Assembly: GCF_022846255.1 (NCBI RefSeq)
Contig: NZ_AP025682.1
From: Escherichia coli
GTDB taxonomy: Bacteria > Pseudomonadota > Gammaproteobacteria > Enterobacterales > Enterobacteriaceae
DNA length: 64,000 bases
Reading direction: 5' to 3' (one strand)
Made by a program: the position numbers and the translations under genes. Each line of letters opens with the position of its first letter. Positions within the stretch are counted from its first letter, which is position 1. Shown piece by piece: positions 20,724 through 27,821 of this stretch. The notes under the pieces are model-generated. The model was not told the DNA's origin, did not search any database, and saw only the letters and a list, made by a program, of their open reading frames with translations.

Positions 20724-22181
20724 ATGAAAACACCCTCACAGCCGCGCGCGATATACTATATCGTGGCGATCCAAATCTGGGAGTACTTCAGTTTTTACGG
20801 CATGCGTGCCTTACTCATTCTCTATCTCACCCATCAGCTTGGTTTTGATGATAACCATGCCATCAGCCTGTTCAGCGCATATGCTTCTCTGGTTTACGTT
20901 ACCCCTATTCTCGGCGGCTGGCTTGCCGACCGCCTGCTCGGCAACCGCACTGCAGTGATTGCCGGCGCGCTGTTAATGACCCTTGGCCATGTGGTGCTGG
21001 GCATTGATACAAATTCAACCTTTAGCCTGTATCTGGCGCTGGCAATCATTATTTGTGGCTACGGTTTATTCAAATCAAACATCAGCTGTTTGCTTGGCGA
21101 GCTCTACGACGAGAACGATCATCGACGTGATGGCGGTTTTTCGCTGCTATATGCTGCGGGCAATATCGGTTCTATCGCCGCGCCCATCGCCTGCGGCCTG
21201 GCTGCTCAGTGGTATGGATGGCATGTTGGCTTTGCCCTTGCGGGAGGCGGCATGTTTATCGGTTTGTTGATTTTCTTAAGTGGTCATCGTCATTTCCAGT
21301 CCACGCGTAGTATGGATAAAAAAGCGCTCACTAGCGTCAAATTTGCCTTACCAGTATGGAGCTGGTTAGTGGTGATGCTCTGTTTAGCCCCAGTATTTTT
21401 TACCCTGCTGCTGGAGAACGACTGGTCCGGATATTTGCTGGCGATCGTTTGCCTCATTGCCGCACAAATCATTGCCCGCATGATGATCAAATTCCCCGAA
21501 CACCGCCGTGCTCTTTGGCAAATTGTATTGTTGATGTTTGTCGGGACGTTGTTCTGGGTACTGGCACAACAGGGCGGCAGTACCATCAGCTTGTTTATCG
21601 ATCGCTTTGTGAATCGTCAGGCATTCAATATTGAAGTACCTACAGCACTATTCCAGTCGGTGAATGCCATTGCGGTGATGCTCGCTGGGGTTGTTCTGGC
21701 CTGGCTGGCGTCGCCAGAAAGCCGCGGCAATTCAGCATTGCGCGTCTGGCTGAAGTTTGCCTTTGGCTTACTGCTGATGGCTTGTGGCTTTATGTTGCTG
21801 GCATTTGATGCCCGACATGCAGCGGCTGGCGGTCAAGCGTCAATGGGCGTGATGATATCCGGGCTGGCGCTAATGGGCTTTGCTGAACTCTTTATTGACC
21901 CGGTGGCGATTGCGCAAATCACGCGTCTGAAAATGTCTGGCGTATTAACTGGTATTTATATGCTGGCAACAGGCGCAGTCGCCAACTGGCTGGCAGGCGT
22001 CGTGGCACAGCAGACGACAGAGTCGCAAATTAGCGGTATGGCAATTGCCGCTTACCAGCGATTCTTTTCTCAGATGGGAGAGTGGACGTTGGCTTGTGTC
22101 GCGATCATCGTGGTATTGGCCTTTGCTACCCGTTTTCTGTTTAGCACGCCGACGAATATGATACAGGAGAGCAACGATTAA
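20724..22181 (+). CDS. dtpC: Dipeptide/tripeptide:H+ symporter (POT family)
   Basis: 485-aa membrane protein with the POT signature region (…[26 protein letters not shown]…). Confidence 0.9.
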
Positions 22182-22417
22182 CTGTCGTAAAAACAATTGG
22201 TTATGAATAAATTAACTTTCAGTTTATCACACTAGCAAATCGAGATTAATAAGTCATTTAAACCATTTTTATGGTTATTTATTAGTGATATCAACTTGAG
22301 GTAAACGTTAGTTTCGATAAGATAAACTGAGTTATTAATAGTCGAGGCAGATAATACAGTGTACCGATCTGTCTCTTTATCTACGCTAAATTGAAAGCTG
22401 GATTTAGAGGAACCAAA

Positions 22418-23935
22418 ATGTCTGAACGAGAAACACGGGGAGCCAATGAGGCTATTGATTTTAACGATGAACTGAGAAATCGCCGCGAAAAACTGGCGGC
22501 ACTACGTCAGCAAGGTGTGGCGTTTCCCAATGATTTTCGCCGCGACCATACCTCTGACCAGTTGCACGAAGAGTTTGATGCGAAGGATAACCAGGAACTG
22601 GAATCCTTAAACATTGAAGTCTCGGTTGCTGGCCGAATGATGACCCGTCGTATTATGGGGAAAGCCTCCTTTGTAACGTTGCAGGATGTCGGTGGCCGTA
22701 TTCAACTGTACGTTGCAAGAGATAGCCTGCCAGAAGGTGTTTATAACGATCAGTTTAAAAAATGGGATCTGGGTGACATTATCGGTGCCTGCGGTACGCT
22801 GTTTAAGACGCAAACGGGTGAGCTTTCCATTCACTGTACTGAGCTGCGCCTGCTGACTAAAGCACTACGTCCTTTACCAGATAAATTCCATGGTCTGCAG
22901 GATCAGGAAGTCCGTTATCGTCAACGTTATCTGGACCTCATCGCTAACGATAAATCCCGTCAAACGTTTGTTGTCCGTTCAAAAATTCTGGCCGCTATCC
23001 GTCAGTTCATGGTCGCACGCGGCTTTATGGAAGTAGAAACCCCGATGATGCAGGTAATTCCAGGTGGGGCATCTGCTCGCCCGTTTATTACCCATCATAA
23101 CGCTCTGGATTTAGATATGTACCTGCGTATCGCGCCGGAGCTGTATCTGAAACGTCTGGTTGTAGGCGGTTTTGAACGGGTATTCGAAATCAACCGTAAC
23201 TTCCGTAATGAAGGTATTTCTGTTCGCCATAATCCTGAGTTCACAATGATGGAACTCTACATGGCATATGCGGATTACCACGATTTGATTGAACTGACGG
23301 AGTCACTGTTCCGCACCCTGGCACAAGAGGTACTGGGTACCACTAAAGTCACTTATGGCGAGCATGTGTTTGATTTCGGCAAACCGTTTGAAAAACTCAC
23401 CATGCGCGAAGCAATCAAAAAATATCGTCCAGAAACCGATATGGCGGATCTGGATAATTTTGATGCTGCTAAAGCATTAGCTGAATCTATCGGTATTACG
23501 GTAGAGAAAAGCTGGGGGCTGGGACGTATTGTTACGGAGATCTTTGATGAAGTGGCAGAAGCACATCTGATTCAGCCAACCTTTATTACGGAATATCCGG
23601 CAGAAGTGTCCCCGCTGGCGCGCCGTAATGATGTTAACCCGGAAATCACCGACCGTTTTGAATTCTTCATCGGTGGTCGTGAAATTGGTAATGGTTTTAG
23701 CGAATTAAACGACGCAGAAGATCAGGCTGAACGTTTCCAGGAACAGGTTAACGCTAAAGCTGCAGGTGACGACGAAGCCATGTTCTATGACGAAGATTAC
23801 GTGACTGCGCTGGAATATGGCCTGCCGCCAACCGCTGGTCTGGGTATTGGTATCGACCGAATGATTATGCTGTTTACAAACAGTCATACTATTCGCGACG
23901 TTATTCTCTTCCCGGCGATGCGCCCACTGAAATAA
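22418..23935 (+). CDS. lysU: Lysyl-tRNA synthetase, inducible isoform
   Basis: 505 aa from M10 of the track ORF ([33 protein letters not shown]…); class II aaRS motifs. Confidence 0.9.
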
Positions 23936-24053
23936 ATTTCACTTTAATGAACGAAGCAGTCAGGCGACTGCTTCGTTCGTCATTCCGCAAATCCAGTTTT
24001 GAGGAGAGACGCTTCGTTTCAAGATAACCAGCGGGTCCACTCAACTACAGCTC

Positions 24054-24227
24054 CTAAAAGAGAGAAAAAAGTAATGCCACAGGCAGACTCATTGGCCAGG
24101 TTATTCCGACCAGAAATGCACTAAGTAAACGAATATGTGTTTTCTCATGTGAGATAAACCAGATAATGACAAAGGATATGTTCACACCAATCACATAAAA
24201 AATTAATATTTTAGAGAATAGTGCCAT
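24054..24227 (-). CDS. ghoT: Type V toxin GhoT (small membrane toxin, 57 aa)
   Basis: Hand-translated minus-strand ORF MALFSKILIFYVIGVNISFVIIWFISHEKTHIRLLSAFLVGITWPMSLPVALLFSLF, immediately downstream of ghoS; below the 60-aa track cutoff. Coordinates hand-derived, ±1 nt possible. Confidence 0.8.
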   Translation of the reverse strand: MALFSKILIFYVIGVNISFVIIWFISHEKTHIRLLSAFLVGITWPMSLPVALLFSLF

Positions 24228-24254
24228 TTTTTATGTTCTTCTTATCCTTCCTGG

Positions 24255-24551
24255 CTACTTGTAAAACTGACGGAAATAGTCATCAACGGTCATAATGCTG
24301 AGGTCAAAATCAATATCCGGTAAGTCTAAGCATTTGAGCCTGATTAAATCTTCGATTTCACTTGCGGCTAACGATGTCGTTATTGCGAAGGAGTTTTCAT
24401 TCAGTTGTCGTGGTATCCCATATTCATCAGCCACGATAGAGGAGAAATTCATATCATACATCAATGATCTTAACCTTAAGAACACTGAGGAATAAGATGA
24501 TGGATAATCAAAAGAAACAACATAAGTATTGAACTTGTTTTTACCTTCCAT
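24255..24551 (-). CDS. ghoS: Type V antitoxin GhoS (RNase cleaving ghoT mRNA)
   Basis: 98-aa ORF MEGKNKFNTYVVSFDYPSSYSSVFLRLRSLMYDMNFSSIVADEYGIPRQLNENSFAITTSLAASEIEDLIRLKCLDLPDIDFDLSIMTVDDYFRQFYK. Confidence 0.85.
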   Translation of the reverse strand: MEGKNKFNTYVVSFDYPSSYSSVFLRLRSLMYDMNFSSIVADEYGIPRQLNENSFAITTSLAASEIEDLIRLKCLDLPDIDFDLSIMTVDDYFRQFYK

Positions 24552-24778
24552 AATATGACTCCTATCAATATTGAACGCTCTGGGGACGCAAAACTTATTA
24601 ACCCCGAATGATGATTCTCATATAGGAGATATTCTTTTTTTTTGCTCAGTAAAGGGGATGACTTGGGACAAAAAAACGCTCTCTCTGACCATTCTTTGTG
24701 CATCCCCCTACCCTTCAGATGCTCTCCTGCATCACACCGCGGAGAGCATGAAAAATATCGTGACTCTGTACTCTCCCA

Positions 24779-25051
24779 TCAACTGCGAATATCATCATAC
24801 TCCCGTGTTTTATCAAATTCGTGTTTCGCAAATGGGCATAGTGGGATAATTTTTCGTTTTTCCCGACGCATTTTTTCCACGACTTTCGCAACCAGCTGTT
24901 TACCAATCCCTTGCCCTTTCAGGCTTTCATCGACATCGGTATGTTCGATAATCGCTAAATTCTCTCCGGTCGGCACAAAGACAATTTCAGCGATTTGCTT
25001 GCCTTGTTCGTCATTAATGTAAAATTTATTGTGGCCTTCGCGTATTTCCAT
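24779..25051 (-). CDS. yjdJ: GNAT-like small protein YjdJ
   Basis: 90-aa ORF with the GNAT-like QGIGKQLV motif. Confidence 0.8.
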
Positions 25052-25062
25052 TTTACCCTCGC

Positions 25063-25293
25063 TTATTTATGACGGTATTTCAGCGCGCCACTCGGGCACG
25101 TATCAATCACTTTAACCACAGTGGCAACGTCGACTTCATCCGGCATGATTCACGGCTTTCGTTTGAGATTAAATAACTTGCCGTTGCCACGTACGCAATT
25201 GCCAGAATGCTGACATATCGCAGTATTGAAATAGACATCGATCTTTTCGCCGGTATAACAGCGATAACCCCCGTCCAGTAGCGCCCGATCCAT
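25063..25293 (-). pseudogene. yjdI: yjdI (DUF1271 Cys-rich protein) interrupted by an in-frame TGA at codon 48
   Basis: Minus-strand frame from the ATG at 25293 reads MDRALLDGGYRCYTGEKIDVYFNTAICQHSGNCVRGNGKLFNLKRKP, then TGA at 25152..25150, then [28 protein letters not shown] to the TAA at 25063-25065. 47 + 1 + 28 = 76 codons; the track has no ORF of 60 aa or more in this frame. Confidence 0.6.
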
Positions 25294-25473
25294 GACCTTC
25301 CCTCTCTCATCAGTATGATTATCGCTATAAGCATAGCCCCGGAATCTTCATACAGCACTGGCAGTTTCCGTTGCCAGAATCTCTTCCCCTATATAGCCAA
25401 TCATTCTTACTCCCTTTGAATTACCCGCCTCATCAGAGATAATGCTTAAGAAATTTGTCACACAAGGAAGCTG

Positions 25474-27105
25474 ATGAGACATTCATTGCCCTACCGTATG
25501 TTACGCAAACGTCCGATGAAATTGAGTACCACTGTGATCTTAATGGTCAGCGCGGTACTGTTCTCGGTGCTATTGGTGGTGCATCTGATTTACTTCTCGC
25601 AAATCAGTGATATGACGCGAGACGGGCTAGCTAACAAGGCTCTGGCAGTAGCGCGTACCCTCGCCGACTCGCCGGAAATCCGTCAGGGCTTGCAGAAAAA
25701 ACCGCAGGAGAGTGGAATCCAGGCCATCGCGGAAGCCGTGCGCAAACGCAACGATCTGCTGTTTATTGTCGTTACCGATATGCACAGTCTTCGCTACTCG
25801 CATCCTGAAGCCCAGCGTATTGGTCAGCCATTTAAAGGTGATGACATCCTTAAAGCGCTGAATGGCGAAGAAAATGTCGCTATCAATCGCGGTTTTCTGG
25901 CGCAGGCTTTACGCGTATTTACCCCCATCTACGATGAAAATCATAAACAAATTGGCGTAGTGGCGATCGGCCTTGAGTTAAGCCGCGTGACCCAACAGAT
26001 CAATGACAGTCGCTGGAGCATTATCTGGTCGGTACTATTTGGCATGCTGGTCGGACTGATCGGCACCTGCATTCTGGTTAACGTACTGAAAAAAATCCTT
26101 TTCGGCCTGGAACCCTACGAAATCTCCACACTGTTTGAGCAACGCCAGGCCATGTTGCAGTCCATCAAAGAAGGCGTCGTTGCCGTGGACGATCGCGGCG
26201 AGGTCACGCTGATCAACGATGCCGCACAAGAATTGCTGAATTACCGTAAGTCGCAGGACGATGAGAAACTGTCGACGCTAAGCCACTCGTGGTCACAAGT
26301 GGTAGATGTCTCGGAAGTGTTACGCGACGGAACCCCACGCCGCGACGAAGAGATTACGATTAAAGACCGACTATTACTGATCAACACCGTTCCGGTGCGC
26401 AGTAATGGCGTTATCATCGGTGCCATTTCAACCTTCAGGGACAAAACTGAAGTACGTAAACTGATGCAGCGACTCGACGGTCTGGTCAACTATGCTGACG
26501 CACTTCGTGAACGATCCCACGAATTTATGAATAAATTGCATGTGATTCTCGGATTATTGCATCTGAAGAGTTATAAGCAGTTGGAAGATTACATTCTCAA
26601 AACAGCCAATAACTATCAGGAAGAGATTGGCTCTCTGCTGGGTAAGATCAAATCTCCGGTTATCGCTGGTTTTTTAATCAGCAAGATTAACCGCGCGACC
26701 GATTTAGGCCATACGCTGATTTTAAACAGTGAAAGCCAGCTGCCAGACAGCGGTAGTGAGGATCAGGTCGCGACGCTGATTACCACGTTGGGAAATCTGA
26801 TAGAAAACGCGCTGGAGGCATTAGGGCCGGAACCCGGTGGCGAAATTAGCGTAACATTGCACTACCGTCACGGCTGGCTGCACTGCGAAGTTAACGATGA
26901 TGGACCGGGGATCGCACCCGACAAAATCGATCACATTTTTGACAAAGGTGTCTCGACAAAAGGAAGCGAGCGAGGCGTCGGTTTAGCACTTGTCAAACAA
27001 CAGGTAGAAAATCTCGGCGGCAGCATCGCCGTGGAATCGGAACCCGGGATTTTCACACAATTTTTTGTCCAGATACCCTGGGACGGGGAGAGGTCGAACA
27101 GATGA
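25474..27105 (+). CDS. dcuS: C4-dicarboxylate sensor histidine kinase
   Basis: 543 aa; two transmembrane segments, periplasmic sensor, PAS and HATPase_c motifs (DDGPGIAPD). Confidence 0.95.
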   Translation: MRHSLPYRMLRKRPMKLSTTVILMVSAVLFSVLLVVHLIYFSQISDMTRDGLANKALAVARTLADSPEIRQGLQKKPQESGIQAIAEAVRKRNDLLFIVVTDMHSLRYSHPEAQRIGQPFKGDDILKALNGEENVAINRGFLAQALRVFTPIYDENHKQIGVVAIGLELSRVTQQINDSRWSIIWSVLFGMLVGLIGTCILVNVLKKILFGLEPYEISTLFEQRQAMLQSIKEGVVAVDDRGEVTLINDAAQELLNYRKSQDDEKLSTLSHSWSQVVDVSEVLRDGTPRRDEEITIKDRLLLINTVPVRSNGVIIGAISTFRDKTEVRKLMQRLDGLVNYADALRERSHEFMNKLHVILGLLHLKSYKQLEDYILKTANNYQEEIGSLLGKIKSPVIAGFLISKINRATDLGHTLILNSESQLPDSGSEDQVATLITTLGNLIENALEALGPEPGGEISVTLHYRHGWLHCEVNDDGPGIAPDKIDHIFDKGVSTKGSERGVGLALVKQQVENLGGSIAVESEPGIFTQFFVQIPWDGERSNR

Positions 27106-27821
27106 TCAATGTATTAATTATCGATGATGACGCAATGGTCGCGGAGCTGAATCGCCGATACGTGGCACAAATCCCGGGCTTTCAATGCTGTGGAACGGCT
27201 TCGACGCTGGAGAAAGCCAAAGAGATTATCTTCAATAGCGATACGCCTATCGACCTGATATTGCTAGATATCTATATGCAAAAAGAGAACGGGCTCGATT
27301 TACTGCCTGTCCTGCATAACGCGCGTTGCAAAAGTGATGTGATTGTCATCTCCTCCGCTGCCGATGCAGTAACCATTAAAGATTCGCTGCATTACGGTGT
27401 TGTGGATTACCTGATCAAACCCTTCCAGGCTTCCCGCTTTGAAGAGGCGCTCACCGGCTGGCGGCAAAAGAAAATGGCGCTGGAAAAACATCAGTATTAT
27501 GACCAGGCCGAGCTTGATCAGCTAATCCACGGCAGCAGCTCCAACGAGCAGGATCCTCGTCGCTTGCCAAAAGGCTTAACGCCGCAGACGTTACGCACGC
27601 TGTGCCAGTGGATTGACGCGCATCAGGACTATGAGTTTTCAACCGACGAGCTGGCTAACGAGGTTAACATCTCGCGTGTTTCCTGCCGTAAATACCTTAT
27701 CTGGCTGGTCAACTGCCACATATTGTTCACCAGTATCCATTATGGCGTCACGGGGCGTCCGGTTTACCGTTACCGTATTCAGGCAGAACACTACTCACTA
27801 CTGAAACAATATTGCCAATAA
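27102..27821 (+). CDS. dcuR: C4-dicarboxylate response regulator
   Basis: 239 aa, CitB-family receiver domain; start overlaps the dcuS stop. Confidence 0.95.
   Translation: MINVLIIDDDAMVAELNRRYVAQIPGFQCCGTASTLEKAKEIIFNSDTPIDLILLDIYMQKENGLDLLPVLHNARCKSDVIVISSAADAVTIKDSLHYGVVDYLIKPFQASRFEEALTGWRQKKMALEKHQYYDQAELDQLIHGSSSNEQDPRRLPKGLTPQTLRTLCQWIDAHQDYEFSTDELANEVNISRVSCRKYLIWLVNCHILFTSIHYGVTGRPVYRYRIQAEHYSLLKQYCQ

What the first reader, a model, noticed from the sequence alone, without database searches (positions are those of the whole stretch)
24054..24551. GhoS/GhoT type V toxin-antitoxin pair present and apparently intact
The 57-aa GhoT toxin is below the ORF-track cutoff and would be missed by length-filtered annotation; I recovered it by hand translation. 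GhoS and GhoT are adjacent on the minus strand in the expected order. This is established biology, noted for completeness.
Basis: established knowledge. Interest (0 to 1): 0.2.

Follow-up and report, generated by a model that had tools for sequence, protein, structure and literature searches.

The report
Intact ghoS-ghoT toxin-antitoxin pair
This is the ordinary, intact chromosomal ghoS-ghoT (type V toxin-antitoxin) gene pair found in about 98% of complete E. coli genomes, with the toxin identical to K-12 and the antitoxin differing by one common natural amino-acid change, so it is already known biology.

Summary
On the minus strand, ghoS (24551..24255, 98 aa) is followed after a 27-nt spacer by ghoT (24227..24054, 57 aa). 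Both have an ATG start and a stop, with no frameshift or truncation.

- **GhoT:** 100% identical to K-12 GhoT.
- **GhoS:** 97/98 identical to K-12 GhoS (PDB 2LLZ). The one change is N85S (A->G at window 24298).
- **The Ser85 allele:** it is not private. An allele-specific 37-mer occurs in 1027 of 5426 complete E. coli genomes; the K-12 37-mer occurs in 3284.
- **Family membership:** Pfam places both proteins far above threshold (PF11080 GhoS, E=1.1e-40; PF10753 GhoT/OrtT, E=8.9e-26).
- **Distribution and context:** the 781-bp locus matches 5338 of 5426 genomes, where RefSeq annotates it as ghoS/ghoT. The neighbourhood dcuRS-yjdI-yjdJ-ghoS-ghoT-lysU-dtpC is colinear with K-12.
- **Published sequence features retained:** GhoS R28, L25 and M31; GhoT F38 and two hydrophobic segments; three 5'-GCU sites (MqsR targets) in ghoS and none in ghoT.

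Activity cannot be tested here. The only point beyond the textbook is that residue 85 was among four repeatedly substituted in toxic GhoS variants from laboratory mutagenesis; no effect of the natural N85S is known.

Verdict: already known, low interest.

The parts
24255..24551 (-). ghoS (yjdK): type V antitoxin, a sequence-specific endoribonuclease; 98 aa. It is the Ser85 allele (N85S relative to K-12, codon 85 position 2 at window 24298).
   Evidence: ORF. Pfam PF11080, E=1.1e-40, 138 bits against a 21-bit cut-off. 97/98 identical to PDB 2LLZ 'yjdK', E=4e-61. Same protein as ChlosBP-23-1 GhoS, RefSeq WP_001312331.1. Allele frequency.
24228..24254 (-). 27-nt ghoS-ghoT spacer (CCAGGAAGGATAAGAAGAACATAAAAA), purine-rich, holding the presumed ghoT ribosome-binding region.
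   Evidence: Sequence read. No differences from K-12 or ChlosBP-23-1 in this stretch. The ribosome-binding role is inferred.
24054..24227 (-). ghoT (yjdO): type V toxin, a 57-aa hydrophobic inner-membrane peptide.
   Evidence: ORF. Pfam PF10753, E=8.9e-26, 90.4 bits against a 22.1-bit cut-off. 57/57 identical to K-12 GhoT, WP_001173343.1. Two hydrophobic segments in the Kyte-Doolittle profile, F38 retained, no GCT triplet.
24552..24778 (-). yjdJ-ghoS intergenic region (227 nt), presumed to hold the ghoST promoter and the ghoS Shine-Dalgarno sequence (AGGAG, 9 nt before the ATG).
   Evidence: Sequence. The consensus scan found no sigma-70-like site inside this interval on the minus strand; the one minus-strand hit, 24816..24788, lies inside yjdJ. 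The promoter is therefore not located. Differences from K-12: 4 SNPs and a 1-nt indel in an A-run at 24643.
23949..23978 (.). 13-bp perfect hairpin (GAACGAAGCAGUC-GCCU-GACUGCUUCGUUC) between the convergent ghoT and lysU genes; a probable shared or bidirectional transcription terminator.
   Evidence: Fold: the 127-nt region has MFE -41.8 kcal/mol, z=-4.0, and 0 of 200 shuffles fold as well. It lies 14 nt after the lysU stop (23935) and 76 nt after the ghoT stop codon. It did not meet the T-run criterion of the terminator scan, so the terminator role is inferred.

Best explanation
This is the chromosomal ghoST operon of Escherichia coli, the founding type V toxin-antitoxin system, intact at its usual position between yjdJ and lysU. 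According to the published model, ghoS and ghoT are co-transcribed. GhoS, an endoribonuclease described as a structural homologue of Cas2, cleaves ghoT mRNA so that the toxin is not made. When the type II toxin MqsR (a 5'-GCU-specific RNase) is active, it destroys the ghoS part of the message, which has GCU sites, and spares ghoT, which has none. GhoT is then translated, inserts into the inner membrane, lowers proton-motive force and ATP, and slows growth ('ghost' or persister-like cells). Shown here: gene identity, intactness, synteny, retention of the residues and motifs the model depends on, and population frequency. Inferred from the literature on K-12: all biochemical steps.
For: ORFs and order are shown. 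Pfam GhoS E=1.1e-40 and GhoT_OrtT E=8.9e-26. GhoS is 97/98 identical to the solved K-12 YjdK/GhoS structure 2LLZ. GhoT is 57/57 identical to K-12, and no indels occur in either coding sequence. The 781-bp locus is present in 5338 of 5426 complete E. coli genomes and RefSeq annotates it as ghoS/ghoT. 6.8 kb of context, dcuR-dcuS-yjdI-yjdJ-ghoS-ghoT-lysU(lysS)-dtpC, is colinear at 98.2% identity with K-12 MC4100 and 99.8% with strain ChlosBP-23-1. GhoS R28, named the most important residue for its endoribonuclease activity, and L25/M31 are unchanged (sequence; PMC4010927). GhoT F38, whose F38R change abolishes toxicity, is kept, and two hydrophobic segments are present (PMC4344625). There are three GCT triplets in ghoS and none in ghoT, against about 2.1 expected from ghoT's composition. 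This matches the published statement that ghoT mRNA lacks 5'-GCU (PMC4344625, PMC4905990, PMC3905216). The mechanism is summarised in PMC8230891 and PMC8309996.
Against: Nothing in the sequence argues against it. Four caveats remain. (1) GhoS carries N85S, and residue N85 was one of four positions repeatedly substituted in growth-inhibiting GhoS variants from random mutagenesis (PMC4010927); which substitutions were found there could not be checked because the supplement is not held. (2) No promoter was located by the consensus scan in the yjdJ-ghoS spacer, so expression is assumed by orthology. (3) The 64-kb window contains no mqsRA, so the upstream regulator's presence in this strain is unknown. 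(4) The two primary papers (PMC3514572, PMC3620836) are not held, so the mechanism is cited from secondary sources.
Confidence: 0.97

Rival explanations
1. The pair is intact in sequence, but the natural GhoS N85S allele changes the antitoxin's activity or substrate range (for example, weaker control of ghoT or broader RNA cleavage), so the module behaves differently from K-12.
For: N85S is the only protein difference from K-12. N85 is one of four residues (D15, M31, E43, N85) repeatedly substituted among the 10 slowest-growing GhoS variants in a mutagenesis screen, and the authors suggest these may be important for controlling GhoS activity (PMC4010927).
Against: The exact Ser85 37-mer occurs in 1027 of 5426 complete genomes, about 19%, always single copy and together with an intact locus. 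A harmful, self-toxic allele would not be expected to persist at that frequency. Asn to Ser is conservative. The toxic phenotype was demonstrated for L25I and M31L, not for N85 changes alone. The key catalytic residue R28 is unchanged.
Confidence: 0.05
2. The 57-aa ORF is an OrtT-like orphan toxin paralogue or a chance small ORF rather than true ghoT.
For: Pfam PF10753 covers both GhoT and OrtT. Very short hydrophobic ORFs can arise by chance in AT-rich DNA.
Against: It is 57/57 identical to K-12 GhoT, whereas OrtT is only 63% identical to GhoT (PMC4344625). It sits 27 nt downstream of ghoS at the syntenic position. It lacks the two GCU sites reported for ortT. The Pfam E-value of 8.9e-26 excludes chance.
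Confidence: 0.01
3. The genes are present, but the chromosomal module has little or no physiological role under natural expression. On this view, the toxin-antitoxin behaviour is largely an over-expression phenotype.
For: Most of the published GhoT/GhoS evidence read here relies on plasmid over-expression. The role of the proposed upstream regulator MqsRA in stress response has been reassessed, going by the title of PMC6918082. That paper does not itself discuss ghoST.
Against: The locus is kept intact in about 98% of complete E. coli genomes. In this strain, changes in the two coding sequences relative to K-12 are 4 synonymous to 1 non-synonymous, which is consistent with purifying selection on both ORFs. 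This reading concerns physiology, not the identity of the feature.
Confidence: 0.2

Closest known systems
E. coli K-12 GhoS/GhoT (yjdK/yjdO, b4128/b4559), type V toxin-antitoxin system (Wang et al. 2012, Nat Chem Biol 8:855; GhoS structure PDB 2LLZ)
   Same: Same genes at the same chromosomal position, with the same order, spacing and lengths (98 aa and 57 aa). GhoT is identical and GhoS is 97/98 identical. The GCU-site asymmetry is the same: 3 in ghoS, 0 in ghoT.
   Different: GhoS has N85S. There are 13 nucleotide differences over 781 bp, including a 1-nt indel in the upstream intergenic A-run. None disrupts an ORF.
E. coli ChlosBP-23-1 ghoST (NZ_CP048603.1; GhoS WP_001312331.1)
   Same: 99.9% identical over the 781-bp locus and 99.8% over 6.8 kb. 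The GhoS (Ser85) and GhoT proteins are identical.
   Different: One synonymous SNP in ghoS codon 88 (window 24288, C against A), not seen in the other two sequences compared.
OrtT (YdcX), orphan GhoT-like toxin of E. coli
   Same: Same Pfam family (PF10753), same length (57 aa), and two predicted transmembrane segments with a conserved F38.
   Different: OrtT is 63% identical to GhoT, has no adjacent antitoxin, is not controlled by GhoS, and its mRNA has two GCU sites (PMC4344625). The window ORF is 100% GhoT, adjacent to ghoS, and free of GCU.

Membership tests
GhoS endoribonuclease antitoxin (Pfam PF11080) | Sequence matches the family profile above the curated threshold over its full length | tested here: met
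   138 bits against a 21-bit cut-off, E=1.1e-40, profile positions 6-93 of 94.
GhoS endoribonuclease antitoxin (Pfam PF11080) | Orthology to the structurally solved K-12 protein (YjdK/GhoS, 2LLZ) | tested here: met
   97/98 identical end to end, E=4e-61; the only difference is N85S.
GhoS endoribonuclease antitoxin (Pfam PF11080) | Key catalytic residue R28 and neighbouring L25/M31 in the wild-type state | tested here: met
   The translation reads ...V23 F24 L25 R26 L27 R28 S29 L30 M31... The importance of these residues is stated in PMC4010927.
GhoS endoribonuclease antitoxin (Pfam PF11080) | Specific cleavage of ghoT mRNA | not testable with these tools
   Requires an in vitro RNase assay or in vivo transcript analysis. 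The ghoT coding sequence, which is the substrate, differs from K-12 by one synonymous base.
GhoT/OrtT membrane toxin (Pfam PF10753) | Sequence matches the family profile above the curated threshold; 57 aa | tested here: met
   90.4 bits against a 22.1-bit cut-off, E=8.9e-26, profile positions 1-55 of 55. 57/57 identical to K-12 GhoT.
GhoT/OrtT membrane toxin (Pfam PF10753) | Two hydrophobic (transmembrane) segments and conserved F38 | tested here: met
   The Kyte-Doolittle 15-residue mean is above 1.6 across windows starting at residues 1-13. It dips to about 0 around residues 22-38 (HEKTHIR) and rises to 1.1-1.7 for residues about 31-57. F38 is present: TTT here, TTC in K-12. The published prediction and the F38R loss of toxicity are in PMC4344625.
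GhoT/OrtT membrane toxin (Pfam PF10753) | Membrane damage, ATP loss and growth arrest on expression | not testable with these tools
   Experimental phenotype only. Inferred from 100% identity to the tested K-12 protein.
Type V toxin-antitoxin system (ghoST) | Antitoxin gene immediately upstream of the toxin gene on one strand, at the conserved yjdJ-lysU locus | tested here: met
   ghoS is followed by a 27-nt spacer and then ghoT. The region is colinear with the annotated K-12 and ChlosBP-23-1 loci.
Type V toxin-antitoxin system (ghoST) | ghoT mRNA lacks MqsR 5'-GCU sites while ghoS has them (the basis of the MqsR-to-GhoT cascade) | tested here: met
   There are 3 GCT triplets in ghoS (24431, 24339, 24331) and 0 in ghoT, against about 2.1 expected by composition. 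Literature.
Type V toxin-antitoxin system (ghoST) | Co-transcription of ghoS and ghoT from one promoter | tested here: inconclusive
   No promoter-like site was found in the yjdJ-ghoS spacer on the minus strand and no canonical terminator was scored. A strong hairpin follows ghoT, and there is no hairpin or gap between the two genes. Co-transcription is inferred by orthology.

The most novel reading that the evidence does not exclude
The natural GhoS Ser85 allele is carried by about one in five complete E. coli genomes and lies at a position repeatedly hit in laboratory GhoS variants that became toxic. It could tune the antitoxin's RNase activity or substrate range. If so, lineages with it would have a differently set threshold for GhoT activation or a different set of GhoS-cleaved transcripts.
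Probability: 0.05. Interest if true: 0.25.

Novelty: already known. Interest (0 to 1): 0.05.

Why it matters
It matters little beyond correct annotation. It confirms that a 57-aa toxin gene below a 60-aa ORF filter is real and intact, and that the window is typical E. coli chromosome around lysU and dcuSR. The only mildly useful by-product is the population frequency of the GhoS N85S allele, at a residue previously flagged by mutagenesis. That allele could be tested cheaply if someone studies natural variation in type V antitoxin activity.

Tried and rejected
- **Rfam:** a scan of 23700..25100 at E<=1 found no known RNA family, so there is no evidence for an antisense or type I-like RNA component.
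- **NCBIfam:** no model matches GhoS or GhoT. This reflects library coverage and is not evidence against identity.
- **Promoter/terminator scan:** it did not locate a ghoST promoter in the upstream spacer and scored no canonical intrinsic terminator. The promoter count in the region (4) is not above the shuffle expectation (2.7 +/- 1.9), so those hits were ignored.
- **Second copy in the window:** tblastn of GhoT and GhoS against the whole window found only the locus itself, so there is no OrtT-like paralogue and no second copy.
- **Primary papers and supplement:** the two primary papers (PMC3514572, PMC3620836) and the supplement listing the N85 substitutions are not held. The exact GhoS cleavage site in ghoT mRNA and the identity of the laboratory N85 substitutions therefore could not be compared with this sequence.
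- **Large searches not run:** the capped protein-database, structure-prediction and metagenome searches were deliberately not used, because near-identity to a solved, annotated K-12 protein already settles the question.

Full report
**1. Observation**

Reading the minus strand of 23800..24900 and listing ORFs of at least 20 aa shows two ORFs.
- ORF 24551..24255 is 98 aa with an ATG start: MEGKNKFNTYVVSFDYPSSY...DDYFRQFYK.
- After a 27-nt spacer, ORF 24227..24054 is 57 aa with an ATG start: MALFSKILIFYVIGVNISFVIIWFISHEKTHIRLLSAFLVGITWPMSLPVALLFSLF.

An AGGAG Shine-Dalgarno sequence lies 9 nt before the ghoS ATG, and the ghoS-ghoT spacer is purine-rich.

**2. Identity**

- **Family assignment.** Pfam assigns the 98-aa protein to PF11080 (GhoS; E=1.1e-40, 138 bits against a 21-bit cut-off). 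It assigns the 57-aa protein to PF10753 (Toxin_GhoT_OrtT; E=8.9e-26, 90.4 bits against 22.1). NCBIfam has no model for either.
- **GhoS against K-12.** GhoS aligns end to end with the solved K-12 structure 2LLZ ('yjdK'), 97/98 identical. The single difference is Ser for Asn at residue 85.
- **DNA against K-12.** I aligned the 781-bp locus to the K-12 derivative MC4100 and to the best hit, ChlosBP-23-1. There are 13 differences from K-12.
  - None is an indel inside a coding sequence.
  - ghoS has three synonymous changes (codons 26, 50, 88) and one non-synonymous change (codon 85, N85S, window 24298).
  - ghoT has one synonymous change (codon 38, TTT against TTC, both Phe).
  - GhoT is therefore 57/57 identical to K-12.

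**3. Context and distribution**

- The 781-bp query hits 5338 of 5426 complete E. coli genomes, 5264 of them over at least 80% of the query. In every full-length record listed, RefSeq annotates it as 'type V toxin-antitoxin system endoribonuclease antitoxin GhoS' and 'toxin GhoT'.
- The annotated neighbourhoods in MC4100 and ChlosBP-23-1 are dcuR-dcuS-yjdI-yjdJ-ghoS-ghoT-lysine-tRNA ligase-dtpC. The ligase sits at the lysU position and is labelled lysS. Both 6.8-kb loci align colinearly to window 27720..20940 at 98.2% and 99.8% identity.
- The window's upstream neighbour (24779..25051, minus strand) is the GNAT acetyltransferase YjdJ. The convergent downstream gene (to 23935, plus strand) is the lysine-tRNA ligase.
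- The ghoST region is AT-rich: ghoS is 36% GC and ghoT 34.5%, against 50% for the window.
- No second copy or OrtT-like paralogue occurs in the window, and no Rfam family matches nearby.

**4. Features the published mechanism depends on**

According to the literature read here:
- GhoS is an endoribonuclease that specifically cleaves ghoT mRNA. R28 is its most important catalytic residue, and L25I plus M31L convert it to a toxin (PMC4010927; PMC8230891).
- GhoT is a 57-aa membrane peptide that lowers proton-motive force and ATP (PMC8309996). F38R abolishes its toxicity (PMC4344625).
- MqsR, a GCU-specific RNase, preferentially destroys ghoS mRNA, while ghoT is one of the few E. coli mRNAs without a 5'-GCU site (PMC4905990, PMC3905216, PMC4344625).

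In this window all of these features are kept:
- R28, L25, M31, D15 and E43 of GhoS are wild type.
- F38 of GhoT is kept, and two hydrophobic segments flank the polar HEKTHIR turn.
- ghoS has three GCT triplets (24431, 24339, 24331) and ghoT has none, against about 2.1 expected by composition.

A perfect 13-bp hairpin at 23949..23978 lies between the convergent ghoT and lysU genes (region z=-4.0). It is a plausible shared terminator, although it failed the scan's T-run rule. The promoter was not located. Co-transcription and all biochemical steps are inferred by orthology, not shown here.

**5. The one difference: N85S**

I built allele-specific 37-mer queries in which every 28-nt megablast seed must span the SNP.
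- The Ser85 version occurs in 1027 of 5426 genomes. This is the same number as the genomes at least 99% identical over the whole locus, which suggests a lineage allele.
- The K-12 Asn85 version occurs in 3284 genomes.
- The remaining roughly 1000 genomes have other nearby SNPs, so their residue 85 was not determined.

PMC4010927 reports N85 among four residues (D15, M31, E43, N85) repeatedly substituted in growth-inhibiting GhoS variants. The specific substitutions are in a supplement that is not held. The allele is frequent and the change is conservative, so I rate a functional effect as unlikely (about 5%). It is the only untested point.

**6. Comparison, novelty and verdict**

This is the K-12 ghoST system itself, in a different E. 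coli lineage. Every sequence-level defining feature that could be tested was met. Enzymatic and toxicity features are not testable in silico. One caveat concerns physiology only: the evidence read here rests largely on over-expression, and the role of the proposed regulator MqsRA has been reassessed (title of PMC6918082, which does not itself discuss ghoST).

Novelty: already known. Interest: 0.05. The first reader's observation and interpretation are both correct, and its own low interest score was appropriate.

Noticed in passing
window 24298 (ghoS codon 85): Natural GhoS N85S allele. The exact allele-specific 37-mer is in 1027 of 5426 complete E. coli genomes, against 3284 with the K-12 37-mer. 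Residue N85 was among four positions repeatedly substituted in toxic GhoS variants from random mutagenesis (PMC4010927).
   Followed up: partly
window 23949..23978: Perfect 13-bp stem with a 4-nt loop between the convergent ghoT and lysU genes, 14 nt after the lysU stop. It is probably a shared terminator but lacks a canonical T-run, so the terminator scan missed it.
   Followed up: partly
window about 24000..25000: AT-rich patch covering ghoT, ghoS and the upstream spacer: 38-41% GC in 500-nt windows, ghoS 36%, ghoT 34.5%, against 50% for the whole window. This is compatible with an anciently acquired islet between yjdJ and lysU.
   Followed up: no
window 22391..23935 (+): The mechanical ORF for the lysine-tRNA ligase starts at a TTG (514 aa). 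RefSeq annotates a 505-aa protein in the orthologous loci, which corresponds to the ATG nine codons downstream (about 22418). RefSeq labels this lysU-position gene 'lysS'.
   Followed up: partly
E. coli genome collection: 88 of 5426 complete genomes have no match to the ghoST locus and 74 more have only partial matches. A few genomes have two places, and 3 places are on plasmids.
   Followed up: no
window 24643: One extra A in the poly-A run (9 A here against 8 in K-12) in the yjdJ-ghoS intergenic region, shared with strain ChlosBP-23-1. It lies in the presumed promoter or 5'-UTR region, and its effect on expression is unknown.
   Followed up: no
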